The notes: generated by a model from the sequence alone, not told the origin. Shown: positions 4,248 through 52,094, counted from the stretch's first letter. The stretch is DNA of 64,000 nucleotides from an uncultured bacterium (GCA_964527215.1 CAZGNZ010000001.1:193276-257275), one strand, 5' to 3'. Program-made: numbers and translations.

Positions 4248-4257
4248 GGCTTGATTC

Positions 4258-6779: not shown

Positions 6780-6795
6780 GATACCTCCTCGTTCG

Positions 6796-8945: not shown

Positions 8946-11900
8946 TTACCGCCAGTCAAAAATAGTTTCGCTGAATTTAACATTGAAGTTGATGTAGAAG
9001 CGGGAGAGACTCTGGTCCAGCTGCGAAAAATCCGGATCGTCATAGCGATTGAATATATATCCGGCACCCAGCTGGATATTTTTATATACCAGATAATTCA
9101 CTTCCAGTGCATTGCCGAATTCCCATTCATTCGTGGCATCCATATTCAGGAGACGAAGATCCAGGGCGGTGCTCCAGCGGGTGGTCCAGTCATACTCGGT
9201 GCGCAGCCCAAAATAGTTCACGGCATTTTCATCATCAAACAGATCACCTTCTTCCTCAAGTACAAATCTTCTGGCAGCCCTGACCCCAAACTCCAGCTCC
9301 TGACGGGGCTGGTAATACCCGTGGGTACTGAATATCAGGCGGTCGCTTCGTACATCCGGGTTCACATGGGAATTGCGCTCAGTTGCATATTCCAGTTTGG
9401 CCAGAACCGTGAACAGGTCGTGTTGGTCCGGCCGGTAGGCAATTCCGAACTGATACCGGCCTTTTACCACTTCCTCGGAAACTTCCTTTCGGTAATCGGT
9501 ATGCGAATGTTCGAGACGCGTGATACCGCTGAATCCCTGGAACAGACGCATCGACCCGCCAAAGGTAAACACCTTCTTCACCGTTGTGTCATCCTGGCGA
9601 TGCTCAAACTTGCCTGAGCTCTTGTACGGTGCCTCCGGAAGGTACTCATAAGCCATAGACACAGCATTGTGATCCTGTGTCGCCGTCTGGAATGAATCGA
9701 TTGTCGCGGTATTTTCAAAGGCCAGGTTAAACGTCAGATCGGGACGGACAGTCCATTTATTGCGCAATCCGATTGTGGCTTTGGCCCGGTCTTCACCCAG
9801 TGCACCGCCCATTTCATACTTACCTGTGAAATCCGTATTTTCCCTGACTTTGGATTCAAACCCAAATACAGTTTCATTTGGTTTTGAACGGCTGTCGATG
9901 ATGCGGTGCTTAAAGAACAACCGAATCTTCTCCGTCATTTCCCAACCCATTCCCAGCAGAAGGCTGGTGGGCTTGGACTGATCTTCTGATTTCAGGTTCT
10001 GGTAATATTCCAATGATCCGGTGAGTTTATCGTTCAGTTTGTGGGAATATTTCCCGGTCAGCAGGGATGATTCACTGGATTCATCTCCGCTGGTGCGGTA
10101 TGCATTTTCAAAGCCCACCGCGAAGCTGCCGCGGCTGTTCAATACTTTTTCATAATCAAGTGTGAAAACACGTTTGGTGGTTTCAGCTGACAGACCGGGA
10201 TTCTTTTCCTCCTGCCAGAACTCCGAGTTCAGGGTTCCCTTTTTCATGTTCTTATAGGATGCGGACACACCGTATTTCCGGGTGTCTCTTTCACTCTTAC
10301 CGCTGTTCTGGGACATGTTGACAAAACTGCTGTCCACTTCCCGGTAGTATCCTTCCAGTGTCAGGTCATCCTGAGGGCGGGCGATAAACTCTGTCTTGTA
10401 TGCCAGGCCGTTGATGTTGTCATCGGTTTCATCACTGTGCTTTGATGCGGCCAGCTCGGCACGAACGGTCAGCCAGTCATTCACGGGAGCCCTGACATCC
10501 AGTCCCAACAGAGAATAATTGCCCGGTTCCTGTTCCTCGGCCACCAGGGTGGTTCCCAGATCGATTCCGCTGATGCGGCCCTTGATCCGCATGCCCCCGA
10601 TCAGATTTTGGGGACCGTCATGGGCCATTTCATAGGAAACAACAATGGTCACAGGATTCCCGTTTTCATCAATGCTTGGAACCGGCTGCTTAAAGAAAAG
10701 CGTGCCGTCCTCGTAGTCAATATCGTAATCATGATACCGAATCATAGGCTGCAGGTCCAGCACTTTTTCGGAATGATATTTATCTCTCGTTTCCAGCACC
10801 ACTTTGTCAGAGAAGCGTGTGATGTCGGTATCACCCAGATAATAAAACCCGGAAATGCCTTCTCCGCGGATACGCTTCAGCGACATTCCCCGGTCGGTTT
10901 CCGCACCAAAGCCGGTCACCTGGAATGCTCCGGATTTATATTGGGTGTACAAGCCGTTCAGGGTGCGGTTGTAGGATGCAAATTCGGTATCCTGAAGATC
11001 GGTTCGATAATCGCCCAGCACCGCATATGCCTTGTCATTTTCCACCCTCACGAAAAGCTTGGAATTGGTTTGAACATCATACATGATCTGTCCGGCATCG
11101 CCGTACAGTGAATACTGACTGGCCGGATCATCATCATCCTCAAGCTGGTTTTGCTTTTTCCGGTCGGAATCAAAGGAGGCCGTCACGCGGTATTCTTCCA
11201 GGAACGTTCCCCTGGCATAAAATGCAGTCCGTCCGCGGAGGGATGCATGATCCCCGTCAAGGATGGTCCCCTTGCGGCTGACAATATCCTGGCCGGCCAG
11301 CTCGTAGTCCTCAAAACCGTCATCATTGCTCATCAGTGCGCCATTGGCAAATCCAGTGAGAATCAGAGGTTCGATCGGACGGGCAAACCGAATGGGAAAC
11401 TGCTGGATGAGACCGTCAATATTGACCTCTATCACCGCGGTCCCCGGTTTTACGGGGGCTTTGATGGGAACGCGCAGGATTCCGCTGTCAATGGCCAGCT
11501 GATGGCCGGCAGACATGTCATCAAAATCAGGTTCCGCGATAGAACCGGACGTGATACTGACAGATGCGATTTTCAGATGATCCAGACGGAATCCCCAGGC
11601 GTCCCGGATTTCCAATTCCACATGTTTCAGGGAACTGCCGTCGGCCACACATTCCAGGTTCTCCTCCAGCGAAACAACCTCGTGGGCCGGCCCCAGAATG
11701 TGCATATTGCGGTTTACGGAGAATATGCGGCCTCTGGAACCCACCGCGTCCACACGGACGTTCACGGGTCCGTCCGGAACAGGTATATTCAGGAAATCCA
11801 ATTTACCGTCAATTCGAAATTCACCGGTAGCAGCGTGCTCATCATTAATAAACAGATCCGCTGCGGCTCCGGCTTTCCCGGCCACAGTCACGGCGATGCG

Positions 11901-12020
11901 ATGCAGTTTGGTTACATCACCCTCACGGGGCGACAGCATAATCACCTGACCGAACGTCATCCCAAGCAGCAGGAATGCTGCTGCAAATGAACGGATAATA
12001 TGGCCGGATCTGAACTGCAC
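8946..12020 (-). CDS. Predicted large outer-membrane beta-barrel protein with N-terminal soluble Ig-like region (usher/translocon-like; function unknown)
   Basis: 1024-aa ORF with signal peptide MQFRSGHIIRSFAAAFLLLGMTFGQ. The C-terminal ~650 aa is a continuous series of alternating-hydrophobicity strands separated by polar/G/D/N turns (e.g. LTFNLAFENTA, YQFGIAYRPD, LEFGVRAARRF, LGAGYIFNRYDD, RFYINFNVKF). It ends in an aromatic-rich tail (..FSETIFDWR). The GTG start overlaps the stop of the upstream giant gene (TAGTG at 12022..12018). Confidence 0.8.
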   Translation of the reverse strand: MQFRSGHIIRSFAAAFLLLGMTFGQVIMLSPREGDVTKLHRIAVTVAGKAGAAADLFINDEHAATGEFRIDGKLDFLNIPVPDGPVNVRVDAVGSRGRIFSVNRNMHILGPAHEVVSLEENLECVADGSSLKHVELEIRDAWGFRLDHLKIASVSITSGSIAEPDFDDMSAGHQLAIDSGILRVPIKAPVKPGTAVIEVNIDGLIQQFPIRFARPIEPLILTGFANGALMSNDDGFEDYELAGQDIVSRKGTILDGDHASLRGRTAFYARGTFLEEYRVTASFDSDRKKQNQLEDDDDPASQYSLYGDAGQIMYDVQTNSKLFVRVENDKAYAVLGDYRTDLQDTEFASYNRTLNGLYTQYKSGAFQVTGFGAETDRGMSLKRIRGEGISGFYYLGDTDITRFSDKVVLETRDKYHSEKVLDLQPMIRYHDYDIDYEDGTLFFKQPVPSIDENGNPVTIVVSYEMAHDGPQNLIGGMRIKGRISGIDLGTTLVAEEQEPGNYSLLGLDVRAPVNDWLTVRAELAASKHSDETDDNINGLAYKTEFIARPQDDLTLEGYYREVDSSFVNMSQNSGKSERDTRKYGVSASYKNMKKGTLNSEFWQEEKNPGLSAETTKRVFTLDYEKVLNSRGSFAVGFENAYRTSGDESSESSLLTGKYSHKLNDKLTGSLEYYQNLKSEDQSKPTSLLLGMGWEMTEKIRLFFKHRIIDSRSKPNETVFGFESKVRENTDFTGKYEMGGALGEDRAKATIGLRNKWTVRPDLTFNLAFENTATIDSFQTATQDHNAVSMAYEYLPEAPYKSSGKFEHRQDDTTVKKVFTFGGSMRLFQGFSGITRLEHSHTDYRKEVSEEVVKGRYQFGIAYRPDQHDLFTVLAKLEYATERNSHVNPDVRSDRLIFSTHGYYQPRQELEFGVRAARRFVLEEEGDLFDDENAVNYFGLRTEYDWTTRWSTALDLRLLNMDATNEWEFGNALEVNYLVYKNIQLGAGYIFNRYDDPDFSQLDQSLSRFYINFNVKFSETIFDWR

Positions 12021-15000
12021 TATTTCACTCGAATCTCGATTTCTGTCTGGTAATTCACTCTGAGTGCTCTGGTCCCTATCAGCGCCTGTATTTCCACAGG
12101 CAGAATAACAGTCCCGGGGACGCTTTTGCTTTGTCCTTTGAAACGGAACGTCCGTATTGGGTCAGTTCCGTCGATTAAAATTTCAGCCTGCATTTCCGAA
12201 AGCGGTTTTCCGCTCTCTGCAGTGAACAGGAACGTTTCATTCCCTGTCAGTTTCAGCAGTACCCGATCCGCTTTTTCAATCCGAGAGATATCTGCATTCA
12301 GGCGCAGCTCCATTTCCCCCCCGGAGTTGGCGTACATGGTCGGGACCGCTGCCGATTCCCGAAGAGAGCCGTCATGGAAGGTAATGACGGAATTTTCAGA
12401 TCTGCCGGGCATATGTTCTGCAGAATCTGAATTGTCCGGGACCGGAATCTGAAATTCAATAACGGCTTCTCCATTTGCTGACTGCGAGCTGAGGAACGTT
12501 ACCTGGATCCGACTTTCTGCCAGGTCCCGATCACGGGTAAGATAATGTGTGACCGCCTGGATTTTATCCCCCATTGAATCGGCTTCTTCATTATTTGCCG
12601 GTTGAATTCCCACAATTTTCAGATTCAGATGCTCCTGCCAATGGAGAAAATCAGCAATCCCATTCAAGACCTGCTTCGTTTCAGGATGCAAACTGGCGCC
12701 GGAAGAAAGGATGGATTCCGCGGAAAGGGCGGAAGTGAGGTAAATGTTTTCGATATATGCATGTGCAGCAGTGGACAGTTGACCGGATTCAAGATGTTCT
12801 GCATTCCGTACAAAAGCGGCAACGCTGTCCTCAGCTGATATTTTGTCCGGATCATTGATTTGAATGCTGTAGGAGAGGATCAGATCTGAATGTGATGAAA
12901 TAGCCGGAAGATTCCAGGATAGGGCGGCTGAACTGCCGGACGGCTCCGTGTTTTGACCGGCAATCCGTCCGGAACCGGCTGTGTATGCCCATCCTGAAGG
13001 CAGGTTTGCCGTGAACCGGTATCCTTCAAGTGAATCCCGTGCAGTGGTTTTGAAGACGGTTTCCAACTCAAGCACTGCTCTGGACAGATCGGTGCGCTGC
13101 GGTGAAGTGAACTTCAGTTCAATTCGCCGGTTTTGACGCCGGCCTTTACGGGTGCTGTTGTCCGCCACCGGTTCATCAGGCCCTTTGCCGTTGGTGCGGA
13201 TACGGCTTTCCGATATGCCCAAATCGCCGACCAGGAAACTCCGGATGTTTTCTGCTCTCGCCCGGGACAGTTCGTAGTTATCTGCAAATTCCAGCCGGCC
13301 GGATACGGGAACGCTGTCGGTGTGGCCGATAATTTCAAGTTTGACCCCCGGCTGCCAGTTCAAATACTGACCGATCCTGCGGACTTGATTTTGATCGGCT
13401 GCACTCAGACGGGCGCTGCCGGATTCGAAGTTGAAAAATGCAAAAATCTCAAGTGGATGGAACTGAACCGCCCGTACACCCGATGTCAGTGATTTCTGAC
13501 TTACTGTGAGGGGATCCGGCCGAATATCGGGACATGATCCGTCGGATGTGATCCCCTGAACCGGTACTTCCAGGAATCGGTGCATGACCGGATTCGTTTC
13601 CGGGAGACTGCTGCCGACACGGTTCAGGCGCAGTTTCAATCCGGCAATGATATCGTGCGCCTGCGGCTGCATTCGGCTGTCGCTGAAATACGGACCGTAC
13701 ATATGCAGAATCAGCCGGTTCCGTGCAATCCCGGCATCGGTCAGATACTCCTGAATCTGCATTCCGGCTGCCTGAGCAGCATCAGGGGATTCAGACAGAC
13801 TGCTGTCAGCAGGACAATGGATTTCGATGTCAATATCCAGTCCGGGTTCCCACTGCAGCAGCTCCGCAACCTGATTCAGCTGATCAACGGCTTCCTTCGA
13901 AAGCGTGCCAGTTCGGGAGTTCAAGGTGACGGTTTTCAGATACAGACCGTCTGCCCGAACGGCAAAGGGAGCTGTCAGTTCACCGGCTGCCAGACGGTAC
14001 CCAACGGTATTGGTGTATTCGAACCGGCCCGTGACGCTGCCATTGTCCGGAATGGGACCGATATCTGCCGGAACCAATTCACAGTTATAGGTCTGGTCAA
14101 CGGAATACTGCCACCCGCCAAGATTCCAGATCAGGCTGCGGTCATCGACTGCAATGTTCTCGAACGGTGCATCATTCAGTCGGGCGGAACCCTGCACGTA
14201 CCGGAAACCATTCGGAATGCTCATGATGAACCGCACATCTGCCAGCGGGTATTCGCTTGTGTATTCCGCCCGGGCTTGGATTCCCAGACTTTCAGGATTC
14301 TGCGGCCGGTGTTCCGGAGAACTGAATCTGAGTTCAATTCTACGGTTTGCGGCTCGTCCGGCAGATGCGGAATTGGCTGCCACCGGTTCATCAGGTCCCA
14401 TTCCCGCCGTATGCACGCGCTGCGGAGAAATCTGCCATCTGGAATCCAGATATCGCACAACAGCATTGGCCCGGGCGCGGGAAAGCTCATAATTGTCTTT
14501 AAACAACATCCCGAAGGACACCGGGACATTGTCCGTATGCCCGATCACATCAAGAACAACGAATTCCTGCATCCGCATGAAACTGCCGATCAGATCCACG
14601 GTCTCAAGATCGGTACTGTCCAGTACCGCGCTGCCGCTGTCAAAATTAAAATGGGTATCCATTTCAAACGGCTCAAACTCCTGCAGACGATAGCTGGGAT
14701 TGAGCACTTCCAGACTGATTTCAAGGGTGGGTATCTGACACAGCTCAAGTGATATGTCACCTGCAGCGGGTTCTTCAATGGGGAAATTGGCTTTTGCAAT
14801 GCCGCCGGGAGTTACTTTTGTCAACCGAGACCAGGGGTCGTTCATGAAATCCGTGGAATTGATGCGCACCACCGACCCTTCCGGGATGGTGTAACGGTTC
14901 AGGCGAATGACATGTTCACCCGGCTGCACATTTGGCACGGAGTATTTGCCGAATTCATCCGTAATGACCCTGATCCCGTTTTCCAGAATCAGCTCGACAT

Positions 15001-18000
15001 AGGGAAGAACTGCCTCACCGCTGTCATGGAGTCCGTTTTCATTTTCATCATAGAATACCTTGCCGAATATGAGTCCGTCCGTGAGCAGACCGTCGGGTTT
15101 TACCAAAACGGTTGCGGTTGCTACCGGGGAGGTTACCGGTGCGGATCCTCCCGGTGTTCCGCTGGCCCAGGCCTGGTTCTCGCAGTCTCCCGGACTTGAA
15201 TTCAATCCAATCACGGTGCGGAATTTCAGAACGGCCATCGAACCGGCAGTCAGGGATTCATTCAGTTCCCAAACCAGCTGCTGCTGCCGGCTGTTCAGTG
15301 CAGTAATCACCGGGTCAGCAATCCGGCTGCCGTCCAGGTAGGAACTTCCTTTTTTATATTTGAATCCGTTCGGGAGATGATCGGTGAGAGTCAGCTGGTG
15401 CAGGACGGTGCCAAAACTTTCATTTTGGGCTTCAAGGGTATAGGTAACGTAATCCCCATGGATTGCGGTTTGTCTGTTGGCGGTTTTTTCCAGCATCAGC
15501 ACCGGCGCGGAAACCTGGGTATCCGCATCGCTGCGCCCGTCCGCGGTGGTGCGAACGGTATCCAATCCGGAATACAGATAAGCGGTATTGACGATATATC
15601 CGCCGGTACTGAGTACATCCGAAGTGACCACGGCACTGAACCGTACGGAATCCATCTCTGCTTCCGAGAATTCCAGTGCATAAAATGTCAGGTCGTTCCG
15701 GACGGGATCGTATGAGTGATAGGTGATATCCTGAGGGTGCTCGATCGTATTCAGCAGCACTTCCAGACCGGTTGGCAATTCATCAACCAGCCAGGTGGTG
15801 TCTGCCACAGGGAATGATTCGGTGCCGAAGTGTATGGTATAGGTCAGCGTATCGCCCACAGCGGCATTTTCAATATCCACTTCCTTGTAGGTGGCCAGGG
15901 TGAGACGGTCCAGCCCGATATTGGCATTGATGACATAATAACCTTCGGTAAGGTCTTCCAGAACGATATTGCCCATACTGGCGTATTCTTCTTCACCATC
16001 ATACTGCACTTCCACTTCATAGGTGCCTTCATACAGCTGGGTAAATGCATAAAAGCCGGTTTCATCGGTGTACGTGGTATCTGTGAAACCCTCCTCAACA
16101 AATGACCGGTCCAGGCTGCGGCCGAGTGAGTCCGGCGGCGAACCGTTCAGGATAATGGGGATGCCGCCTTCCGCAATAATTTCGCCGGTTACCATATCAA
16201 TGATCCATCCGGAGATGGAAATCCAGTTGGTGATGATGATGTTTTCATTGAGGTCATCGTCGGATATGTCAATATCCTGGCCGACAGGGATGGGATCACC
16301 GTTGGGAGCCAAAATGGTGATGACGATGTAATATTCATCGGGATCTGTAATGGGTATCAGGTAATAGCCTTCGGTATCTGTCGTGTCTGCACCGACAAAA
16401 TCATCTCCGGAGTTATACACATCGACAATGGCACCCTGTATTGACACATCGCTGTAGTCAATCACCCATCCGGCTACGGCGCTGGGGTAGAAAGTTACAT
16501 CGGTTTCGGCGGTGTCATAGGTGGAGCTGCCGTAACGAACGGTCGCGGTGACATGCGAAATGACAGTCTCGTTGAGAACAATGCTGGATACAAGCTGCGA
16601 TGGGGCAATGCCATTATCCGTCTGCGTGGTAAGCAATGCCTCAGGAATGGTCCCTTCCGTCGCGGTGAAATCAACATCCACCGGTTTGTCCACGGGATTG
16701 CCAAGGAATGTATACACGGGAGCATACAGCAGCGCGCTGTTCAAGCCGTTACCCAGAATCCAGGGCGGTACGGCATAAAGCTCGATGGAAAGCGGCAGGA
16801 CATTTGTCGTTAGAGCGCTGGATTGGTCCGAACTGCCTTCAATGCAGGTGACAGAGGCGGTATTTTCAAATGTGGCTCCTTCGGGCAGCAGAACATCCAC
16901 CACGGTTTGGATGGTAAGTGTATGGGATGTCAGAGCGGGCATGTCGTCAAAGACCCAGGTCAAAACCTTGCTGAAATCGTCATATGCATAATCGCCGTCT
17001 GCGTCGTAAAGGGTCAGTTCCGGCGGCAGTGTGTCGTTCAGTGTTACCTGGGTAGCGGTATCCGAGCCGATATTATCCAGAATGAGCGTATAGATCAGTG
17101 TATCTCCGGGGAAGATTTCGATATCAGCTATTTTGGTCAGTTCCAGCTGCGGCGCGGAAACGACCAGAATTTCGGTTTCGTCAGACTGGTTTTCCAGTCC
17201 CGGGGCTGAACAGACGGCTCTGTTGGGAATCGCCGTTTCATTGGGGATTGGATTGGCGGTTTGGGCAGTAAGAAATAAGGTATCCGATGCTCCTGCGTAA
17301 AGCTGCGGAATATTCCAGGAAACCACATTGTCCTGCAGAGATGCTTCAGGGGTGGAATCCAGGAGTGTCAGCCAGTCTGAAAGGGTATCTGTCACCGTAA
17401 GGTTGTGGATGGTCAGGAATTCAGGATTGGCGATGATAATCTCGTAGGTCACCGAATCACCTGCATCAAAAATATCTCCGTCTGCCTGTTTCCGGATGTC
17501 CAGAACGGGCAGATGCATGGGGATATCCGCATTGATCAGCCAGACGGCTTCGGGCAGATCAGCAGCAGGCATTTCGCCAATCTGAATGAACTCCAGTTCA
17601 TTCTGGGGATCCATGACGGCCTGAAGCCGATAAGTACCGGCAGACAGCCCGTTGAAGGCGTATTTTCCGTTTTCATCCGTGTAAGTGGAATCAGTCCGTA
17701 TATCGTCAGACATGAGATAAATACGGATGTCGCCTACCGTGATTGGCACACCGGTGGCCAGGTTTGTCACAGAACCGGAAATGGTGCTGTGATTCAGAAT
17801 CTGTGACTGTCCTATTCCAGACATCATATCAACTGCAACCGTATTCACAGAACCGGTGCTGCGGCCGAAATGGTCTTCTGCAGTGCCGATTACGGTATAT
17901 TCTCCGGATTCCGTTACCGGCAGCAGGTACATCCCGTCAGCATCCGTCTGATCAGACCAGCGCAGCAGAGAGTCCCAGTCACGCAGTTCAGTTTGCGCGG

Positions 18001-19282
18001 CTACCACGGGCACATTGGTACTGTGGTCCATGATCCGCCCGGCGACGGCCAGGGGGTAAAAATGAACCAGAGTCTGATCCGAGATATTGTCAGGCGGTTC
18101 AGTGCCGGTTTGTACGGTGGCCGTTATTTCTGCAGTTATGATTTCATCCGTACTGACTGCAGATGTCAGAATTTCTGACACAATCCCGTCTTCCGTCGAT
18201 AAGGTTACCACAGTGGCTTCATTGGACCAGATTCCGGCAGTTGTCTCGAGTTCCACCTGAGTACCGTCCGGTACCGGCAGTCCCCAGAAACTGGTCACAC
18301 TGGCCGTAATCAGAGAAGCGGATTGTCCGTCTGCCGGGATCATATCCGGATTCGGAGTCACCGCAATGTGATACGGAGAATCTGCAGGGTTGAGAATCGT
18401 TTCAGCAGCGGCATGGAGTTCAGTACCGGTGTCATCGGTCAGCACTGCCTGGTTTTCAATCAGAGCATCTATTGGATATGAACCGGCTGCTTCAGCCGTT
18501 AGCACAAGTTCAATATCCGAACCAGGCAGAAGTGAACCCAATTCCCAGGTAATGAATTGGCCGTTTTGAAATCCGTTTGGAATAGAAGACAAATAGGTGA
18601 GTTCATCCGGCAGGATATCCGTTATCACTGTTCCGGATGTTGGATATGGACTGTTGTTTTCTATATAAATAGTATAGGTGAGGACATCCGAGTCGTAGGC
18701 AAAATCAGTATTGACAGTTTTGGAAAATTCGTAATTCACATCAGGATACTGGTCTATAACAACAATTGTGGTATCAGAAACAAAGGGTATGGTTCCGGCA
18801 GCAGAAACTGCCAGGTTGGAGATCTGAGTTCCAACAGGTGTCTCGGGATGTATGACAACGCGCAGGGTGAATTGGAGGATTTCTCCGGATTGAAAATTCG
18901 AGAAATTCCATATAACAACATTGTTTTGCATTGATGCAGGGGGACTTGAATCCAGAAAACCGACTGCGGCATTGAGGGTATCTGTAATGACCCCTTCCGG
19001 TATCGGAAAAATGCCGTTGTTTTCAGCTGTTATGGTATAGACAATCGTATCACCGGGAGCTGCTGACTGCTCGTCAGCGCTTTTTTGCAGCAGGATGTCA
19101 GGGACTGCAACATCAGTGATGACCGTATTGGTACTGTCACTGAACAGCGCACCGCCGGCATCCAGGAATTCTGCAAATGCCCGATTGGATATTTCCTGTC
19201 CGGATACGGATGTAATCAGGCTGAGCAAACCAGCCAGAACCGCACCAAAGCAATGGATCATGCTGCGAATGGATATTCTCAT
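12020..19282 (-). CDS. Giant (2420 aa) multi-domain envelope protein: DUF11 repeats, Big-like, CarboxypepD_reg-like and SdrD-B-like units plus four internal OmpA-like domains
   Basis: Single uninterrupted ORF with signal peptide MRISIRSMIHCFGAVLAGLLSLITSVSGQ. It has many PGDT(I/L).Y.I...N.G DUF11 units. Two canonical OmpA/MotB peptidoglycan-binding domains are present: FNFDSGSAVL...GHTDNVP...NYELSRARANAV...NRRIELRF at ~14320..14655, and FNFESGSARL...GHTDSVP...NYELSRARAENI...NRRIELKF at ~13105..13440. Each is followed by a DUF11-like unit and a degenerate OmpA-like unit lacking those motifs (~13640..13930 and ~12485..12712). Confidence 0.92.
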   Translation of the reverse strand: MRISIRSMIHCFGAVLAGLLSLITSVSGQEISNRAFAEFLDAGGALFSDSTNTVITDVAVPDILLQKSADEQSAAPGDTIVYTITAENNGIFPIPEGVITDTLNAAVGFLDSSPPASMQNNVVIWNFSNFQSGEILQFTLRVVIHPETPVGTQISNLAVSAAGTIPFVSDTTIVVIDQYPDVNYEFSKTVNTDFAYDSDVLTYTIYIENNSPYPTSGTVITDILPDELTYLSSIPNGFQNGQFITWELGSLLPGSDIELVLTAEAAGSYPIDALIENQAVLTDDTGTELHAAAETILNPADSPYHIAVTPNPDMIPADGQSASLITASVTSFWGLPVPDGTQVELETTAGIWSNEATVVTLSTEDGIVSEILTSAVSTDEIITAEITATVQTGTEPPDNISDQTLVHFYPLAVAGRIMDHSTNVPVVAAQTELRDWDSLLRWSDQTDADGMYLLPVTESGEYTVIGTAEDHFGRSTGSVNTVAVDMMSGIGQSQILNHSTISGSVTNLATGVPITVGDIRIYLMSDDIRTDSTYTDENGKYAFNGLSAGTYRLQAVMDPQNELEFIQIGEMPAADLPEAVWLINADIPMHLPVLDIRKQADGDIFDAGDSVTYEIIIANPEFLTIHNLTVTDTLSDWLTLLDSTPEASLQDNVVSWNIPQLYAGASDTLFLTAQTANPIPNETAIPNRAVCSAPGLENQSDETEILVVSAPQLELTKIADIEIFPGDTLIYTLILDNIGSDTATQVTLNDTLPPELTLYDADGDYAYDDFSKVLTWVFDDMPALTSHTLTIQTVVDVLLPEGATFENTASVTCIEGSSDQSSALTTNVLPLSIELYAVPPWILGNGLNSALLYAPVYTFLGNPVDKPVDVDFTATEGTIPEALLTTQTDNGIAPSQLVSSIVLNETVISHVTATVRYGSSTYDTAETDVTFYPSAVAGWVIDYSDVSIQGAIVDVYNSGDDFVGADTTDTEGYYLIPITDPDEYYIVITILAPNGDPIPVGQDIDISDDDLNENIIITNWISISGWIIDMVTGEIIAEGGIPIILNGSPPDSLGRSLDRSFVEEGFTDTTYTDETGFYAFTQLYEGTYEVEVQYDGEEEYASMGNIVLEDLTEGYYVINANIGLDRLTLATYKEVDIENAAVGDTLTYTIHFGTESFPVADTTWLVDELPTGLEVLLNTIEHPQDITYHSYDPVRNDLTFYALEFSEAEMDSVRFSAVVTSDVLSTGGYIVNTAYLYSGLDTVRTTADGRSDADTQVSAPVLMLEKTANRQTAIHGDYVTYTLEAQNESFGTVLHQLTLTDHLPNGFKYKKGSSYLDGSRIADPVITALNSRQQQLVWELNESLTAGSMAVLKFRTVIGLNSSPGDCENQAWASGTPGGSAPVTSPVATATVLVKPDGLLTDGLIFGKVFYDENENGLHDSGEAVLPYVELILENGIRVITDEFGKYSVPNVQPGEHVIRLNRYTIPEGSVVRINSTDFMNDPWSRLTKVTPGGIAKANFPIEEPAAGDISLELCQIPTLEISLEVLNPSYRLQEFEPFEMDTHFNFDSGSAVLDSTDLETVDLIGSFMRMQEFVVLDVIGHTDNVPVSFGMLFKDNYELSRARANAVVRYLDSRWQISPQRVHTAGMGPDEPVAANSASAGRAANRRIELRFSSPEHRPQNPESLGIQARAEYTSEYPLADVRFIMSIPNGFRYVQGSARLNDAPFENIAVDDRSLIWNLGGWQYSVDQTYNCELVPADIGPIPDNGSVTGRFEYTNTVGYRLAAGELTAPFAVRADGLYLKTVTLNSRTGTLSKEAVDQLNQVAELLQWEPGLDIDIEIHCPADSSLSESPDAAQAAGMQIQEYLTDAGIARNRLILHMYGPYFSDSRMQPQAHDIIAGLKLRLNRVGSSLPETNPVMHRFLEVPVQGITSDGSCPDIRPDPLTVSQKSLTSGVRAVQFHPLEIFAFFNFESGSARLSAADQNQVRRIGQYLNWQPGVKLEIIGHTDSVPVSGRLEFADNYELSRARAENIRSFLVGDLGISESRIRTNGKGPDEPVADNSTRKGRRQNRRIELKFTSPQRTDLSRAVLELETVFKTTARDSLEGYRFTANLPSGWAYTAGSGRIAGQNTEPSGSSAALSWNLPAISSHSDLILSYSIQINDPDKISAEDSVAAFVRNAEHLESGQLSTAAHAYIENIYLTSALSAESILSSGASLHPETKQVLNGIADFLHWQEHLNLKIVGIQPANNEEADSMGDKIQAVTHYLTRDRDLAESRIQVTFLSSQSANGEAVIEFQIPVPDNSDSAEHMPGRSENSVITFHDGSLRESAAVPTMYANSGGEMELRLNADISRIEKADRVLLKLTGNETFLFTAESGKPLSEMQAEILIDGTDPIRTFRFKGQSKSVPGTVILPVEIQALIGTRALRVNYQTEIEIRVK

Positions 19283-19405: not shown

Positions 19406-21127
19406 TTAGTCGATGGTTACCTGGAAAGTAACGTACGTCGAACCGCCAGCGCCCAGAGAAGGAATCGTGAACTGAGCGGTATTATTGGAGAACGTACCGC
19501 TGTCACCGTCGGCAGCATCGGTTTTGGCAACCCCTGCCAGTGACAGAGAACCGGCAACGTAAGTGGTGTTGGCCGGAATCGGATCGGTGATTACAACCTG
19601 AGTGGCCTGACCGGTTCCGATGTTCATGATATCTACCTGATAAGTCAGGACCGTTCCCGGAGGCTGGGGACCTTCCGGAGTCACGGATTTGACCAGGGAC
19701 AATGAAGGTGCGGTCACGGTCACAACCATTTCACCGGAATCACTGACAGCAGGATTACCGACGGAAGTTGCGGTGACAGAAATGACTTCTTCCGTGCCGT
19801 CGTTCGTACCGGCAGGAACGGTTGTCAGCGCGATAATGCACACCGTTTCATCGGCTGCAAGGGACCCCAGATCAATGATACCGTCATTGTTGGTGTCGGT
19901 TAACAAGATGTCATCCGGATCAATGGTACCGTTGCCGTTGAAATCCCAGTAGAAAGTCCACAGCCAGAAATTGCTGACATACGAAATGTTAAATATATCG
20001 TCGCCGTTACCGTCATTGGTGAAACAGAGACTGTATGTCACTTCATCACCCGGATCAGCGAATGCCAGATCATCATCGCCTGCGGTCACGCCGTAAACCT
20101 GTCCCACAACCATTGGTCCGCCGGTAATTTCTTCCGGAGGAAGCGGTGAACCTTCAGGATTTTCAGTTTCAACCGTGACATCAACCGGAATGGTTGTGCC
20201 TTCGGGCACGCCGTCATTCACAACTACCTGATAGAAAACACAGTATTCTTCCTGAGGTGCGATATCACCGAGAAAGAAAGTCGCAGAGTTGGCATTGGTG
20301 ACATTGAAGTCGCCTGCAAATTCAACCGGATATTCCACACCGTCGTCAGCATCCGTCAGAGGATTGGAATTGGGATAGTCATTGCTGGTGTAGAAAGCCA
20401 TGGTTTCAGGTGCATAGGTTGTATTGTCCGGAATGAATCCGATCAGTGAAGTATTGAAGCCAATCGCTGAACCGGTATTTTCCGTACATACCGAAATAGT
20501 GACGGTACCGCCGGGAAGCGGATTTTCATCATCCAGCGTGATTTCAGTTTCCATTACCGCTGTTGAGACGGTCGTGGTCAGGTTTGAGCTGTCGGATACC
20601 TGATCATCAAACTGGGAAACAGCCGTTACCGCAGTCTGAATCACGGTGCCGTTGTCAGCTCCGCCGTCGGTGGTATCTGTGATTTTGATGATGATGTCCA
20701 GTGACTCATCCGCGGCAAGGAGGCCGGTATCCGTGATAATGGCATCGTTGCCGTCGATAATACCGTTGCCGTTTTCATCCAGATAGATTTCCACATCAAA
20801 TTCGCCTGCACCCGTAATCTGCGAGATTTGACTCAGATCGAATACATCATCTCCGTTACCGGTATTCACCACATCCATGGGATACAGTTTAACACCGCCG
20901 GCTGCGATGTTTGAGGATGTCTGGTCCGGAATGAGATCCACACCGGCAACCTGACTGACGATTGTGGTGACAACATTGGAAGTTACCTGCGCCAGGGAGT
21001 TTCCGTTGGCGTCTTTATAGTTGCCGTAAGCAACGTTGGTGATGCTGGTACCGGCAGGCGTACCGGCTGCAAAGACCAAACTCATGGCCAGTGCTGTGAC
21101 GATTAATATAATTGAATTTCTTTTCAT
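19406..21127 (-). CDS. Secreted multi-domain DUF11 protein, 'type 2' subunit (module B)
   Basis: 573-aa ORF with signal peptide MKRNSIILIVTALAMSLVFAAG and GGAG upstream of the ATG. TPAGTSITNVAYGNYKDANGN... is collinear with 2523..4247 over the full length. The C-terminus is ...GSTYVTFQVTID. Confidence 0.88.
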   Translation of the reverse strand: MKRNSIILIVTALAMSLVFAAGTPAGTSITNVAYGNYKDANGNSLAQVTSNVVTTIVSQVAGVDLIPDQTSSNIAAGGVKLYPMDVVNTGNGDDVFDLSQISQITGAGEFDVEIYLDENGNGIIDGNDAIITDTGLLAADESLDIIIKITDTTDGGADNGTVIQTAVTAVSQFDDQVSDSSNLTTTVSTAVMETEITLDDENPLPGGTVTISVCTENTGSAIGFNTSLIGFIPDNTTYAPETMAFYTSNDYPNSNPLTDADDGVEYPVEFAGDFNVTNANSATFFLGDIAPQEEYCVFYQVVVNDGVPEGTTIPVDVTVETENPEGSPLPPEEITGGPMVVGQVYGVTAGDDDLAFADPGDEVTYSLCFTNDGNGDDIFNISYVSNFWLWTFYWDFNGNGTIDPDDILLTDTNNDGIIDLGSLAADETVCIIALTTVPAGTNDGTEEVISVTATSVGNPAVSDSGEMVVTVTAPSLSLVKSVTPEGPQPPGTVLTYQVDIMNIGTGQATQVVITDPIPANTTYVAGSLSLAGVAKTDAADGDSGTFSNNTAQFTIPSLGAGGSTYVTFQVTID

Positions 21128-21140
21128 TGCTCCAGTTTCC

Positions 21141-22868
21141 TTAGTTAATGACTACTTGAAAGGTTATGTATGTTGACCCGCCGGGGCCCATTGTCGGGAT
21201 TTGAAACTCCACCTGATTGCTGGAAAAAGTTCCGCTGTCTCCGTCGGCGGCATCTGTTTTGGCAACCCCGGCTACAGTCATACTGCCCGATATGTAAGTG
21301 GTGTGGGCAGGAACTGCGTCCGTAATGACCACGTCGGTTGCCTGACCTGTACCGGCATTCAGAACATCTACTCTGTATGTCAGCACAGTTCCGGGAGGCT
21401 GTTCTCCTTCCGGTGTCACGGATTTGTTAAGACTCAGAATTGGGGCCGTTACGGTGGTCGTAATGGTACCCGAGTCTGAAACAGTGTCGTCAAAAACGGA
21501 TGTTGCCGTTACCGTCATCACATCCACCGTCCCGTCATTGGTGCCGGCCGGGATGGCACTGGTGCCGATAATGCAGACCGTTTCGTCCTGATCCAGAGTA
21601 CCCAGATCGATAACACCGTCGGAATTGGTGTCTGTCAGCTCGGTATCGTCCGGATCGATGTTTCCGTTTCCGTTTGAATCAAAATAGAAAGTCCAGGACC
21701 AGAAGTTGCTGACATATGAAATGTTGAATACGTCTTCACCGTTTCCTGTGTTGGTGAAACAGATACTGTACGTCACTTCATCACCAGGATCAGCGACTGC
21801 GGTATCATCATCACCCGCTTCGACTCCGGCGAACTGATCAACAATGGAAGGATCACCATGATAGGTACCCGGTGGGTAGGGTGTCCCCTCGCCGTTTTCA
21901 AATGTCACATCTACTTCCGGCTGGATGGTGGTTCCGGCAGGTGTGCCGTCAACAACCACAACCTGATAGAAAACACAGCCTTCATCCATCGGAGCGGCAT
22001 CTCCCCAAACAACTGTGACCAGATCCGCATTGGTAACATTGAAATCACCTTCTGTGGCCGGGGGGTATTCCACCCCGTCATCTGCATCAGTCAGAGGATT
22101 GGCATTGGCAAACTCATCCGTCGGATAGTAACCGAGAGTACCCGGTACATATGTTGTATTTTCCGGGATTTCTCCGATGAAGGTGAGGTCGTAGGAGGTT
22201 GCAGACCCCGTGTTTTCAAAGCAGACTGAATATGTGATTGTCTCACCCGGCAGCGGACTGACGTCACTTGGCGTGACGGTGACATCCAGCACTGAAGCGG
22301 CCACGGTGTGATCCGTATCTGCCGTGTCAGTTACCGTGTCATCAAACTCTGATACGGCCGTGATCACCGAAGCGACATTGGCACCGTCAGGTGCTCCGCC
22401 GTTCGTGATATCCGTGATCAGGTATATCAGATCAAGCTCTTCATCAGCCGCCATCTCGGGGGTGATGGCAATCGGGGCGTCCAATCCGTCAATAACACCG
22501 TTTCCATTTATATCGTGATACAGTTCCACTGTAAAGGAAGCATCACCGGTAATGGTGGTGTTCACGGAAAGGGTGAACTGGTCGTTGCAGTTTCCAGTGT
22601 TTGTCAATGTCAGGGATGACAAATGAGTTGACTGGGTCGGGATGGTGTTTGACAGCAATGCAGGATGCAGGTCAACACCGGCGACCTGACTGACCGTCGT
22701 AGTAACCGTGTTGGATGTAACCTGGGCCAGGGAATTGCCGTTGGCATCCTTGTAATCCCCATAGGCTACATTTGTGATGGTTGTTCCGCAGGGGGTCCCG
22801 GCACCGAATGCCGTCGACCACAGCAGAACTGTCATCAATATTCCAGTATTAAAGCGTAGTAGCTTCAC
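21141..22868 (-). CDS. Secreted multi-domain DUF11 protein, 'type 1' subunit (module B)
   Basis: The ORF track gives 21141..22976. I place the start at GTG 22868, because AGAAAGGAGACAGTT precedes it (same RBS and spacing as paralog 4258..5985). This gives VKLLRFNTGILMTVLLWSTAFGAG. It shares the type-1 Cys pattern (GTPCGT, NTGNCND). Confidence 0.85.
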   Translation of the reverse strand: MKLLRFNTGILMTVLLWSTAFGAGTPCGTTITNVAYGDYKDANGNSLAQVTSNTVTTTVSQVAGVDLHPALLSNTIPTQSTHLSSLTLTNTGNCNDQFTLSVNTTITGDASFTVELYHDINGNGVIDGLDAPIAITPEMAADEELDLIYLITDITNGGAPDGANVASVITAVSEFDDTVTDTADTDHTVAASVLDVTVTPSDVSPLPGETITYSVCFENTGSATSYDLTFIGEIPENTTYVPGTLGYYPTDEFANANPLTDADDGVEYPPATEGDFNVTNADLVTVVWGDAAPMDEGCVFYQVVVVDGTPAGTTIQPEVDVTFENGEGTPYPPGTYHGDPSIVDQFAGVEAGDDDTAVADPGDEVTYSICFTNTGNGEDVFNISYVSNFWSWTFYFDSNGNGNIDPDDTELTDTNSDGVIDLGTLDQDETVCIIGTSAIPAGTNDGTVDVMTVTATSVFDDTVSDSGTITTTVTAPILSLNKSVTPEGEQPPGTVLTYRVDVLNAGTGQATDVVITDAVPAHTTYISGSMTVAGVAKTDAADGDSGTFSSNQVEFQIPTMGPGGSTYITFQVVIN

Positions 22869-22985
22869 AACTGTCTCCTTTCTTCTATCTTCTTGGTTTT
22901 TCGCATCTAATTGCGAGTGCCCGCAGTGTTTACGGCGGACATTGGTTTTTCTGAAGTTTTGTATTTTGGTTAACATTGATATTCT

Positions 22986-23477
22986 CTATTTAATGACTGC
23001 CAGAAATGTGTACTCACGTGATTCTCCCGGTTCCAGATCGGACAGAATCTGCCAGCGAATATGCGTGACGTCCTTTGCCTCTGCCGGTATTTCGACGGGA
23101 TTTCCGTTCTCATCAAGCTTGATTTTTGTTGGTGGCCATTCCTGAAATCTGCTGCCGTCGATACTGAAAGTGACGTCAGCATCATCAAAGGAGGCGGTTT
23201 CGGCGATGTACGCCACACCTTCCGGCAGAGGATCCACCACAGCCGCTTCAGTCATCAGCGCATCACCGATATTGGCTGCAGAAATCGTGTAGCGCAGTGT
23301 GTCCCCAGGTGAAAATGTGAGTTCGCCGCTTTCCTGCTCCTGCGGCGTTTTGCTGAGTTTTTCAGGGGTTATCTGAATGGATAATTCCGGCTGCGCAAGC
23401 AGCAGGCCCATGCAGACTGTCAGCAGTATTGGGAATTGAATTGTTTTCACTGGTTGCTCCATTGTAGGTATTGTCAT
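22986..23477 (-). CDS. Small secreted single-DUF11-domain protein (module B)
   Basis: 163-aa ORF with a hydrophobic N-terminus (FPILLTVCMGLLLAQP). LTFSPGDTLRYTISAANIGDALMTEAAVVDPLPEGVAY...REYTFLAVIK is paralogous to 6315..6779. ATGA start/stop overlap with the upstream gene. The exact start (23477 or 23462) is uncertain. Confidence 0.8.
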   Translation of the reverse strand: MTIPTMEQPVKTIQFPILLTVCMGLLLAQPELSIQITPEKLSKTPQEQESGELTFSPGDTLRYTISAANIGDALMTEAAVVDPLPEGVAYIAETASFDDADVTFSIDGSRFQEWPPTKIKLDENGNPVEIPAEAKDVTHIRWQILSDLEPGESREYTFLAVIK

Positions 23478-26029: not shown

Positions 26030-26045
26030 TCTGTCTGTGAATTCG

Positions 26046-35129: not shown

Positions 35130-35185
35130 TTGTTCCCCTTTGGTTATTTTAATCTATAGACAGAAAAAATATTGAACACAGCCAT

Positions 35186-39631: not shown

Positions 39632-39638
39632 CCTGATA

Positions 39639-52070: not shown

Positions 52071-52094
52071 ACTCGATGATTGGAATTTTTGCAG

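What the first reader, a model, noticed from the sequence alone, without database searches (positions are those of the whole stretch)
12020..19282. 2420-aa protein with a duplicated OmpA - DUF11-like - degenerate-OmpA supermodule embedded after surface-type repeats
Seen in the sequence: the N-terminal ~1500 aa is adhesin-like (DUF11, Big-like, CarboxypepD_reg-like, SdrD-B-like FYDENENGLHDSGEA). The C-terminal ~900 aa contains two canonical peptidoglycan-binding OmpA domains (NRRIELRF at ~14322..14350, NRRIELKF at ~13105..13135).

Each OmpA domain is followed by a DUF11-like sandwich and a second OmpA-like fold. The second fold keeps the scaffold (e.g. LNQVAELLQWEPGLDIDIEIHC; LNGIADFLHWQEHLNLKIVGI) but has lost the GHTD/NxxLSxxRA/NRR motifs. 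This ~400-aa supermodule is present twice.

Established knowledge: OmpA-like domains act in the periplasm, binding peptidoglycan.

Inference: either the whole giant (and perhaps the whole DUF11 system) is periplasmic, or the protein must cross the outer membrane with its C-terminal third left inside. Either option is unusual for DUF11 proteins, which are generally annotated as surface proteins.
Basis: partly seen in the sequence, partly recalled or inferred. Interest (0 to 1): 0.72.

Follow-up and report, generated by a model that had tools for sequence, protein, structure and literature searches.

The report
Wall-anchored giant fibre protein with partner barrel
A 2420-residue secreted fibre protein ends in a duplicated cell-wall-binding module, half of whose wall-binding units have lost their binding residues; it belongs to a conserved, uncharacterised gene pair with a huge predicted outer-membrane barrel in Marinimicrobia-like bacteria, which suggests how the fibre crosses the outer membrane while staying tied to the wall.

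Summary
ORF 12020..19282(-) encodes 2420 aa. It has a Sec-type signal, a stalk of about 1500 aa, and a C-terminal third made of two ~400-aa supermodules (34% identity, E 4e-49). Each supermodule is a canonical OmpA/MotB-like domain, then a beta-sandwich, then a degenerate OmpA-like domain.

- **Canonical units:** they keep the diaminopimelate-contact Asp and Arg (D1584/R1604, D1989/R2009) and the NRR motif.
- **Degenerate units:** they are true OmpA homologues (hhalign 97%; canonical OmpA at the same position in orthologues). They have Pro in place of the Asp and lack NRR.
- **Sandwich:** it is a divergent DUF11/CLIPPER domain.

A CLIPPER stalk with a C-terminal OmpA-like anchor is already published for an Acinetobacter adhesin, so it is not exceptional.

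The added result concerns the next gene (8946..12020). It encodes a family with no Pfam or NCBIfam match, confidently predicted as two Ig-like domains plus a very large beta-barrel. In 65 of 65 related loci it follows a DUF11 protein, and 45 of those carry OmpA.

The best reading is that the barrel passes or sheathes the stalk while the OmpA units clamp it to peptidoglycan. Topology is inferred, not shown. I rate it a new variant of a known kind, of moderate interest.

The parts
12020..19282 (-). Whole ORF, 2420 aa: signal peptide, CLIPPER/Ig-like stalk, two peptidoglycan-anchor supermodules, C-terminal tail
19199..19282 (-). Sec-type signal peptide (aa 1-28, MRISIRSMIHCFGAVLAGLLSLITSVSG|QE). 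There is no lipobox Cys.
   Evidence: Read from the translation. Cleavage site is inferred. The database copy P0071 starts at Met8.
14738..19198 (-). Stalk, aa 29-1515. Six CLIPPER/DUF11 domains lie at aa 56-164, 176-290, 587-699, 706-820, 1125-1243 and 1255-1381, interspersed with Big_1, CarboxypepD_reg and one SdrD_B domain (about aa 1400-1500).
   Evidence: The six-domain alignment has invariant Lys and Asn and two invariant Asp (the DT[LI] Asp is the triad candidate); the N-terminal part, with the Lys, aligns to CLIPPER structure 9IFR.
14315..14677 (-). Canonical OmpA/MotB-like domain 1 (aa 1536-1656), with GHTD D1584, NYELSRARA R1604 and NRR 1646
13937..14290 (-). Spacer beta-sandwich 1 (aa 1665-1782): a divergent CLIPPER-like domain with no lysine in the N-terminal strand segment where the stalk domains carry theirs
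   Evidence: AF2 pLDDT 85-90, all-beta
13673..13936 (-). Degenerate OmpA-like domain 1 (aa 1783-1870). Pro1824 replaces the diaminopimelate-binding Asp, Ala replaces the Arg, and there is no NRR.
13100..13462 (-). Canonical OmpA/MotB-like domain 2 (aa 1941-2061), with D1989, R2009 and NRR 2051
12713..13075 (-). Spacer beta-sandwich 2 (aa 2070-2190)
   Evidence: (weak DUF11 hit at 2075-2161)
12458..12703 (-). Degenerate OmpA-like domain 2 (aa 2194-2275). Pro2228 sits at the Asp position, and there is no NRR.
12023..12415 (-). C-terminal tail (aa 2290-2420). It matches no known family and is not conserved in partner proteins of related loci.
8946..12020 (-). Partner gene, 1024 aa: signal peptide, two Ig-like domains, then a very large predicted outer-membrane beta-barrel. 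Its start overlaps the stop codon of the giant ORF.
19406..26152 (-). Upstream cluster genes on the same strand: 892 aa (6 DUF11), 163 aa (DUF11), 611 aa and 573 aa (paralogues with a C-terminal DUF11)
   Evidence: The same gene order is seen in related loci.
2523..8286 (-). Downstream cluster genes: 496 aa (DUF6923 + DUF11), and 630 aa and 574 aa (two more paralogues of the ~575-aa family)

Best explanation
The ORF encodes the wall-anchored base of a surface fibre in a diderm of the FCB group, probably Marinimicrobia-like.

**Shown**
- The protein has a Sec-type signal.
- It has a stalk of about 14 Ig-like domains. Six of these are CLIPPER/DUF11 domains with conserved residues consistent with isopeptide formation.
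- Its C-terminal third is built from a duplicated unit: OmpA, CLIPPER-like sandwich, degenerate OmpA.
- Only the first OmpA of each unit keeps the Asp/Arg pair that binds the diaminopimelate of peptidoglycan.
- The adjacent gene encodes a conserved protein of about 1000 aa, predicted as two Ig-like domains plus a giant beta-barrel. In relatives it always follows a DUF11 protein.

**Inferred mechanism**
1. After Sec export, the two functional OmpA units bind peptidoglycan in the periplasm.
2. The partner barrel lets the folded Ig-like stalk pass the outer membrane, or sheathes it there.
3. The bulky, wall-bound C-terminal third cannot follow. The fibre is therefore clamped across the envelope.
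4. The degenerate OmpA units no longer bind peptidoglycan. They act as rigid spacers or pseudo-dimer partners, keeping two active sites per protein, as in the orthologues, but further apart.
For: - **Architecture and duplication:**
- **Canonical units:** the sequence aligns to YiaD, OprF, AbOmpA, TssL and MotB/PomB. The model superposes on OprF 5u1h and AbOmpA 3td3/3td5 (target TM 0.81-0.86), and less closely on MotB 3cyq (0.74), E about 1e-8 to 1e-9. D1584/R1604 and D1989/R2009 correspond to AbOmpA Asp271/Arg286 (role of these residues from PMC12108004).
- **Degenerate units:** they are OmpA homologues. The same duplicated and degenerate layout exists in a relative that is 30% identical over its full length (P0321). 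It is therefore old and maintained.
- **Partner barrel model:** mean pLDDT 82, with more than 30 long consecutive strands. Foldseek probability is 1.0 to SlpA, MtrB, LptD and FimD and 0.97-1.0 to SprA, the outer-membrane barrels it hit.
- **Synteny:** 65 of 65 loci have a same-strand upstream DUF11 ORF ending 0-235 nt before the barrel. 39 carry OmpA-sandwich-OmpA and 6 carry one OmpA.
- **Fusions:** barrel followed by OmpA (P0266/P0268), and DUF11 + CarboxypepD_reg followed by barrel (P0267, P0271-P0310).
- **Literature:** a CLIPPER-stalk adhesin with an OmpA-like anchor is described in PMC12617251.
Against: - No experiment or computation here shows on which side of the outer membrane the stalk lies.
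Barrel closure, strand number and lumen size are therefore inferred from the secondary-structure string.
- Foldseek TM-scores to known barrels are low (about 0.2).
- 20 of 65 related loci have no OmpA within 9 kb. The wall anchor is therefore an accessory, not part of the core mechanism.
- The C-terminal tail is not conserved, so no docking element for the barrel was identified.
- No N-terminal adhesive head domain was recognised.
- Peptidoglycan binding is inferred from residues only.
Confidence: 0.5

Rival explanations
1. The whole giant protein stays in the periplasm as a peptidoglycan-associated scaffold or corset, comparable to the view of chlamydial OmcB (a DUF11-repeat protein) as a largely periplasmic layer. 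The barrel would be only its outer-membrane attachment point.
For: - The OmpA units must be periplasmic in a diderm (established knowledge of OmpA, Pal and MotB).
- A neighbouring DUF11 protein hits the Pfam family Chlam_OMP6.
- No secretion signal other than Sec was found.
Against: - About 14 Ig-like domains in series would be far longer than the width of a periplasm (inference from domain count).
- Isopeptide-type CLIPPER stalks are characteristic of load-bearing surface fibres (PMC12617251).
- A dedicated barrel of more than 30 strands is hard to explain as a mere attachment point.
- DUF11-then-barrel fusions have the passenger-translocator order.
Confidence: 0.15
2. The pair is primarily an envelope tether, a functional analogue of OmpA/OprF, SlpA or OmpM. 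The barrel sits in the outer membrane and the OmpA-bearing partner ties it to the wall. The stalk is a secondary surface coat and not an adhesin.
For: - Barrel+OmpA single-chain variants have the classical OmpA order (P0266/P0268).
- One of the best Foldseek barrel matches is the SlpA outer-membrane tether.
- There are two peptidoglycan sites per protein, both in this protein and in its orthologues.
Against: - 20 of 65 loci lack OmpA altogether.
- The cluster carries many paralogous DUF11 proteins, which looks more like a fibre or coat system.
- This rival largely overlaps the best explanation on where each part sits.
Confidence: 0.15
3. The OmpA-like units bind a ligand other than the cell's own peptidoglycan, for example a polysaccharide or foreign cell wall at the surface. 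The whole protein would then be extracellular.
For: None directly. The cell-envelope layout of this uncultured lineage is unknown.
Against: - The Asp/Arg/NRR signature of diaminopimelate binding is intact in both canonical units.
- The closest sequence and structure matches are all periplasmic peptidoglycan binders.
Confidence: 0.07
4. The 'degenerate OmpA' units are unrelated folds, and their resemblance to OmpA is chance.
For: - The Pfam scores are below the curated cut-off.
- deg2 alone is weak (12.9 bits).
- The deg1 model has only pLDDT 50-82.
Against: - hhalign 97%, E 1.2e-10.
- There is positional homology with canonical OmpA in all single-module orthologues.
- A BLAST match links deg1 to OmpA2, E 3e-5.
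- The secondary-structure order matches.
Confidence: 0.03

Closest known systems
Acinetobacter silvestris B9T28_05395, a CLIPPER (DUF11) fibrillar adhesin with an OmpA-like anchoring domain (PMC12617251; PDB 9IFR)
   Same: It is a Gram-negative protein of similar size (2129 aa) with a signal peptide, a stalk of CLIPPER repeats and a C-terminal OmpA-like anchor. The profile of this protein's CLIPPER domains matches 9IFR (E 1.8e-6), including the first-strand Lys.
   Different: - As described, that protein has one OmpA-like anchor, a recognisable CshA-like adhesive head and cadherin-like repeats.
- Here there is no recognised head domain.
- Here the anchor is a duplicated OmpA/CLIPPER-like/degenerate-OmpA supermodule.
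- Here a dedicated giant barrel gene follows. No partner barrel is mentioned in the passages of that paper read here.
Peptidoglycan-binding OmpA-like domains: AbOmpA 3TD3/3TD5, OprF 5U1H, Pal, MotB/PomB, TssL/TagL
   Same: - Pfam scores are above the cut-off and the fold is the same (target TM 0.80-0.88 to the OprF, AbOmpA and Pal domains; 0.5-0.75 to MotB/PomB fragments).
- The Asp and Arg that contact diaminopimelate are conserved, as is NRR.
- The long loop between GHTD and NxxLS resembles that of MotB/PomB.
   Different: - The domains occur four times in one chain, and two of the four have lost the binding residues.
- They sit at the C-terminus of a 1500-aa Ig-like stalk. They are not attached to a barrel, a lipid anchor or a stator.
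Inverse autotransporters (intimin, invasin)
   Same: They have the same functional triad: a periplasmic peptidoglycan-binding domain, an outer-membrane barrel and an Ig-like (Big) stalk outside. The Ig-like domains of the partner protein match the invasin and intimin D00-D1 domains in Foldseek.
   Different: - Those proteins are single chains with LysM, a small barrel and a C-terminal passenger (own knowledge).
- Here there are two chains, OmpA in place of LysM, a barrel several times larger, and the stalk is N-terminal to the anchor.
Large outer-membrane barrels that pass or sheathe other proteins: MtrB, usher FimD, T9SS SprA, and SlpA
   Same: These are the outer-membrane barrels among the Foldseek matches for the partner protein (probability 0.97-1.0). 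MtrB and ushers enclose a partner protein that spans the outer membrane.
   Different: - TM is only about 0.2.
- There is no sequence homology to any PDB chain in the barrel part.
- No chaperone, cytochrome or T9SS component lies in the cluster.
Sortase-assembled Gram-positive pili (isopeptide CnaA/CnaB pilins with a wall-linked basal pilin)
   Same: The domains are stabilised by isopeptide-type chemistry. The cluster holds several paralogous subunits, and one subunit is tied to the cell wall.
   Different: - No sortase or LPXTG motif is present.
- Wall attachment would be non-covalent, through OmpA.
- An outer membrane has to be crossed.
- Polymerisation of subunits is pure speculation here.

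Membership tests
OmpA-like peptidoglycan-binding domain (PF00691): units 1 and 3 (aa 1536-1656, 1941-2061) | Pfam score above the gathering cut-off | tested here: met
   52.8 and 71.2 bits against 27.2
OmpA-like peptidoglycan-binding domain (PF00691): units 1 and 3 | Alpha/beta fold superposable on solved OmpA-like domains | tested here: met
   For unit 1: Foldseek E 1.9e-9 to 5u1h and target TM 0.81-0.88 to 5u1h, 3td3, 3td5 and 4g4w. Unit 3 was not modelled, but it is 53% identical to unit 1.
OmpA-like peptidoglycan-binding domain (PF00691): units 1 and 3 | Diaminopimelate-contact Asp and Arg (AbOmpA Asp271/Arg286) and the NRR motif | tested here: met
   D1584/R1604/NRR1646 and D1989/R2009/NRR2051 (PMC12108004)
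OmpA-like peptidoglycan-binding domain (PF00691): units 1 and 3 | Actual binding of peptidoglycan | not testable with these tools
   Needs a pull-down with purified sacculi
OmpA-like domain: degenerate units 2 and 4 (aa 1783-1870, 2194-2275) | Homology to the OmpA-like fold | tested here: met
   hhalign 97%, E 1.2e-10; canonical OmpA at the same position in orthologues; secondary-structure order. Pfam scores are below the cut-off (22.2 and 15.5 bits).
OmpA-like domain: degenerate units 2 and 4 | Peptidoglycan-contact Asp, Arg and NRR | tested here: not met
   Pro1824 and Pro2228 sit at the Asp position. The Arg is replaced (Ala in deg1; probably Lys in deg2, though that alignment is uncertain). 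There is no NRR, and the match stops before the last helix and strand.
CLIPPER / DUF11 (PF01345): six stalk domains | Pfam score above the cut-off, and the Lys/Asp/Asn positions of the intramolecular isopeptide bond | tested here: met
   190 bits over 6 stretches. K, D and N are invariant in the alignment of the six domains; the N-terminal half of the profile, with the Lys, aligns to 9IFR. Bond formation itself is not testable here.
CLIPPER / DUF11: the two spacer sandwiches | Recognisable homology to DUF11, and the isopeptide residues | tested here: inconclusive
   There is no Pfam hit and hhalign gives only 43.5%. However, the sandwich profile retrieves bona fide DUF11 repeats. No lysine is present in the N-terminal segment of sandwich 1 (read from the sequence; the hhalign match does not cover that strand).
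Gram-negative fibrillar adhesin with an OmpA-like anchor (sensu PMC12617251) | Signal peptide, repeat stalk and C-terminal OmpA-like anchor | tested here: met
Gram-negative fibrillar adhesin with an OmpA-like anchor (sensu PMC12617251) | Distal adhesive (ligand-binding) head domain | tested here: not met
   The mature N-terminus runs straight into a CLIPPER domain (aa 56-164). No adhesive-domain family was hit.
T9SS cargo | C-terminal sorting domain (type A or type B CTD) | tested here: not met
   The tail (aa 2290-2420) has no Pfam hit at E<=10 and no NCBIfam hit at E<=0.1
Chaperone-usher pilus | PapD-like chaperone and usher family barrel | tested here: not met
   There is no chaperone or usher Pfam family in the cluster. 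The barrel has no Pfam, NCBIfam or PDB sequence match. The FimD match is structural only, with TM about 0.2.
Inverse autotransporter | Single chain with LysM, a small barrel and a C-terminal Big passenger | tested here: not met
   There are two genes, OmpA in place of LysM, and a barrel region of about 800 aa

The most novel reading that the evidence does not exclude
The cluster may encode a previously unrecognised way of assembling and exporting surface fibres in FCB-group diderms.

- A giant family-specific outer-membrane barrel, with no Pfam or NCBIfam model, would act like an usher or translocon for folded, isopeptide-stabilised CLIPPER proteins.
- The four paralogous ~575-630-aa proteins and the 163-aa and 892-aa proteins would be fibre or coat subunits.
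- The 2420-aa protein would be the basal subunit. It would be held non-covalently to peptidoglycan by OmpA units.

This would be a sortase-free, diderm counterpart of wall-anchored Gram-positive pili.
Probability: 0.15. Interest if true: 0.85.

Novelty: new variant of a known kind. Interest (0 to 1): 0.55.

Why it matters
How giant Sec-exported fibrillar proteins with a C-terminal peptidoglycan anchor cross the outer membrane of Gram-negative bacteria is not explained in the literature read here.

This locus offers a concrete candidate. It is a conserved, unannotated family of giant barrels. The family was found at 372 places in the species-representative genomes, and the 80 loci listed came from Neomarinimicrobiota, Fidelibacterota, KSB1 and Ignavibacteriota/Bacteroidota. 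In every locus that could be checked, the barrel gene sits directly after a DUF11 protein.

It also gives a clean natural example of OmpA-like domains turning into non-binding structural modules. The number of active wall-binding sites stays at two.

These are abundant, uncultured marine and sediment lineages. Their surface fibres probably shape particle attachment. Distant fused homologues in cultivable Sphingomonadales (for example Erythrobacter sp. KY5) would make the idea testable.

Tried and rejected
- **Separate fold comparison of the sandwich and the degenerate unit.** This was not possible. I replaced it with profile-profile comparisons.
- **First homology search with the C-terminal 920 aa.** It returned only generic multi-OmpA proteins. 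The true orthologues appeared only with the full-length query.
- **T9SS, T1SS and chaperone-usher explanations.** No CTD, RTX, chaperone or usher families were found.
- **A conserved C-terminal docking tail.** jackhmmer with the tail found 0 of 65 partner proteins.
- **A sigma-54 promoter for the cluster next to the sigma-54 activator.** The consensus TGGCAC-N5-TTGC with one mismatch gave 2 matches against 4.8 expected, and neither is near the cluster.
- **Sequence homology of the barrel to solved structures.** Only the N-terminal Ig-like domains matched.
- **Literature.** There is no paper linking Marinimicrobia and DUF11. The search on fibrillar adhesin, OmpA anchor and outer membrane returned only two papers (a vesicle review and a photodynamic-therapy study), and neither was opened.
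- **Organism name.** The look-up of the Rhizorhabdus fusion protein failed.

Full report
**1. What is there**

The window carries a 2420-codon ORF on the minus strand at 12020..19282. Its N-terminus reads as a Sec-type signal peptide without a lipobox (MRISIRSMIHCFGAVLAGLLSLITSVSG|QE; read). Pfam finds DUF11 (six stretches), CarboxypepD_reg (five), SdrD_B, Big_1 and OmpA. NCBIfam matches the OmpA parts best to TssL, YiaD, MotD/MotB and other peptidoglycan anchors.

- NRRIELRF at aa 1646-1653 = 14324-14347
- NRRIELKF at aa 2051-2058 = 13109-13132
- GHTD at aa 1581 and 1986
- FYDENENGLHDSGEA at aa 1410

**2. The duplicated supermodule**

Residues 1520-1857 align with 1925-2259 at 34% identity over 347 columns (E 4e-49). 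The alignment runs through the canonical OmpA domain, the spacer and into the second OmpA-like unit.

Scanned piece by piece:
- The canonical units score 52.8 and 71.2 bits against the Pfam cut-off of 27.2.
- The second units score 22.2 bits (E 1.8e-4) and 15.5 bits (E 0.023).
- The two spacers and the last 130 residues hit nothing.

**3. Are the degenerate units really OmpA-like?**

Yes. Four lines of evidence agree.
- deg1 matches OmpA2 directly (25.6% identity, E 3e-5 in that pairwise comparison).
- A two-sequence profile of deg1 and deg2 matches a 16-sequence profile of canonical OmpA domains with hhalign probability 97% and E 1.2e-10 over 84 columns. The match covers strand 1 through strand 3 but not the C-terminal helix and strand that carry NRR.
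- Orthologues P0072-P0075 and P0077 (about 35% identity) have a single supermodule. In it the unit at this position is a fully canonical OmpA domain with NxxLSxxRA and NRR, and with G[FY]TD in place of GHTD.
- The AF2 model of aa 1515-1930 (mean pLDDT 69) gives deg1 the same helix-strand-helix-strand order as OmpA1 but without the third helix, at pLDDT 50-82.

**4. Peptidoglycan-contact residues**

The alignment of OmpA2 with A. baumannii OmpA (3TD3) puts the Asp of GHTD on Asp271 and the second Arg of LSRARA on Arg286. PMC12108004 reports these two residues as binding diaminopimelate.
- In this protein the equivalents are D1584/R1604 and D1989/R2009, followed by NRR at 1646 and 2051.
- The loop between the two motifs is five residues longer than in AbOmpA. 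From my own knowledge, this resembles MotB/PomB.
- The OmpA1 model superposes on OprF 5u1h and AbOmpA 3td3/3td5 with target TM 0.80-0.86, on Pal (4g4w, 1oap) with 0.86-0.88, and on MotB fragments with 0.5-0.75.
- In the degenerate units Pro1824 and Pro2228 occupy the Asp position. The Arg is replaced and NRR is absent.
- Both copies share the Pro, so degeneration preceded the duplication (inference).

**5. The spacer**

AF2 predicts a confident all-beta domain (pLDDT 85-90).
- Against this protein's own six DUF11 domains, hhalign gives only 43.5% (E 2.4e-4). The match covers the LPxGxxY...W motif.
- A profile of seven spacers was searched exhaustively against 1.84 billion representatives. It found 625 proteins at E<=1e-3. 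Many of them are giant proteins with up to 19 matched stretches.
- Wherever I could re-detect those stretches with a local run of the same profile, they overlapped bona fide DUF11 domains.

The spacer is therefore a divergent CLIPPER/DUF11 domain. No lysine is present in the N-terminal segment where the stalk domains carry theirs (read from the sequence; the hhalign match does not reach that strand).

**6. The stalk**

The six CLIPPER domains (aa 56-164, 176-290, 587-699, 706-820, 1125-1243, 1255-1381) share invariant Lys and Asn and two invariant Asp, including the Asp of the DT[LI] motif. The N-terminal half of their profile, which carries the Lys, matches the solved CLIPPER domain 9IFR (E 1.8e-6).

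PMC12617251 shows that this fold carries a Lys-Asn isopeptide bond that confers thermal and protease stability. The same paper describes the source protein as a Gram-negative fibrillar adhesin with a C-terminal 'OmpA-like anchoring domain'. The general architecture is therefore already described.

**7. How old and how common is this layout?**

- A representative that is 30% identical over almost the full length (P0321, 2409 aa) has the same arrangement: OmpA, sandwich, degenerate unit, OmpA, sandwich, degenerate unit.
- Between the two proteins the degenerate units are conserved about as well as the sandwiches (16-23% identity, 44% positives). The canonical units are better conserved (28-33%, 52-55%).
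- Other relatives carry one supermodule with two canonical OmpA domains. In a few of them the first unit is the degenerate one.
- No partner protein in 65 related loci has more than two OmpA matches.
- The number of intact wall-binding sites stays at two. The duplication spaces them further apart (inference).

**8. The neighbour changes the picture**

The giant ORF's stop codon overlaps the first candidate start codon of a 1024-aa ORF (8946..12020). That ORF has no Pfam or NCBIfam hit.
- Its homologues are about 1000-aa 'hypothetical proteins' of Marinimicrobia/Neomarinimicrobiota and Bacteroidota/Ignavibacteriota MAGs.
- With a 62-sequence alignment, AF2 gives mean pLDDT 82. The model has a signal helix, two Ig-like sandwiches (aa 27-213) and then more than 30 long consecutive beta-strands up to aa 1016.
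- Foldseek matches the Ig-like part to GH2, invasin and intimin domains. It matches the rest to large outer-membrane barrels (SlpA, MtrB, LptD, SprA, FimD) with probability 0.97-1.0 but TM of only about 0.2.
- A profile search of PDB sequences hits only the Ig-like part.

I read this as a very large outer-membrane barrel with no close known relative. Closure and strand number could not be checked without coordinates.

**9. Synteny**

A scan of one genome per species found 372 places that encode a relative of the barrel. The best 80 were returned. By their record titles they are MAGs of Neomarinimicrobiota, Fidelibacterota, KSB1 and Ignavibacteriota/Bacteroidota, plus several labelled Lentisphaeria or only 'bacterium'.
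- In all 65 loci with enough upstream sequence, a same-strand ORF containing DUF11 ends 0-235 nt before the barrel match.
- 39 of these ORFs carry OmpA-sandwich-OmpA, 6 carry one OmpA, and 20 carry none.
- The 20 without OmpA have no OmpA anywhere within 9 kb. Seven of them show a recurrent order: about 1000-1290 aa, about 165 aa, about 600 aa, about 920-1200 aa with 6-8 DUF11, then the barrel; the rest differ.
- That order mirrors this window: 892 aa, 163 aa, 611 aa, 573 aa, the giant protein, then the barrel.

Fusions link the parts.
- P0266 and P0268 have the barrel followed by an OmpA domain.
- P0267 and about 40 proteins of about 1700 aa, those with organism names coming from Sphingomonadales and other Alphaproteobacteria, have DUF11 + CarboxypepD_reg followed by the barrel. 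One is from Erythrobacter sp. KY5.

**10. Mechanism**

*Shown:* the domain composition, the intact and lost binding residues, the conserved gene pair and the fusions.

*Inferred:*
- The OmpA units bind peptidoglycan in the periplasm.
- The partner barrel passes or sheathes the Ig-like stalk.
- The wall-bound C-terminal third stays inside as anchor and stopper.
- The degenerate units act as spacers or pseudo-dimer partners.

The wall anchor is an accessory of the system, not its core, because a third of the loci lack it. The fully periplasmic alternative is not excluded. It fits poorly with a stalk of about 14 domains and with a dedicated giant barrel.

**11. Verdict**

The claim of exceptionality is overstated.

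What is new is the duplicated, half-degenerate anchor supermodule and, above all, the unannotated giant barrel that always accompanies these DUF11 proteins. I rate it a new variant of a known kind, with interest 0.55.

Noticed in passing
window 8946-12020 (-); related loci L004-L083: A family of ~1000-aa proteins with two Ig-like domains and a very large predicted outer-membrane beta-barrel. It has no Pfam or NCBIfam model and no PDB sequence relative in the barrel part. It was found at 372 places in the species-representative genomes, and a DUF11 gene stood directly upstream in all 65 loci that could be checked.
   Followed up: yes
window 2523-4247, 4258-6150, 19406-21127, 21141-22976 (all -): Four paralogues of 573-630 aa (55-65% identical). 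All four end in a DUF11 domain with ...TFQV(T/M/V)I(D/N). The two shorter ones (574 and 573 aa) start with a signal peptide followed by AGTPAGTxITNVAYG; the 611- and 630-aa ORFs have longer called N-termini in which that motif was not seen. There is a weak hit to 'choice-of-anchor T'. They could be fibre or coat subunits of the same system.
   Followed up: partly
L010, L012, L016, L025-L027, L029 and others: A variant of the cluster has no OmpA domain anywhere within 9 kb of the barrel. Its recurrent gene order is ~1000-1290 aa, ~165 aa, ~600 aa, ~920-1200 aa, then the barrel. The wall anchor is therefore optional.
   Followed up: partly
L085 8001-13220 (Erythrobacter sp. KY5, CP021912.1); L084 9001-13116: Single-chain fusions exist. 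One type has a DUF11/CarboxypepD_reg N-terminal part plus the barrel, in cultivable Sphingomonadales, with a CLIPPER gene directly downstream. The other has the barrel plus a C-terminal OmpA, in a metagenome contig. These could serve as experimental models.
   Followed up: partly
window 26994-29882 (-): A sigma-54-dependent response regulator and a PAS histidine kinase lie immediately upstream of the DUF11 cluster on the same strand. No TGGCAC-N5-TTGC promoter match was found near the cluster.
   Followed up: partly
window 43826-47374, 53193-56105, 56080-58338, 58328-61225 (+): Two C25 (gingipain-like) peptidases, an M14 carboxypeptidase and a protein with a sub-threshold GH43 match (30.2 bits against a cut-off of 32.2) all end in a dockerin type I domain. 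This is an unexpected set of dockerin-tagged hydrolases in this kind of genome.
   Followed up: no
window 47410-49018 (+): A Mur-ligase-like gene resembling CapB is followed by a CapC homologue. This suggests poly-gamma-glutamate synthesis. Four ORFs with no family match follow (49011-53180).
   Followed up: no
window 34001-36000: GC content drops sharply (0.36 against about 0.50 elsewhere). The region covers an M13 peptidase ORF (33822-35129) and a 190-aa ORF with no family match. It may be foreign DNA.
   Followed up: no
window 38042-39631 and 39396-40805 (+): Two long same-strand ORFs overlap by about 235 nt, and the second has a GWxTD domain. The cause could be a miscalled start or a frameshift.
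   Followed up: no
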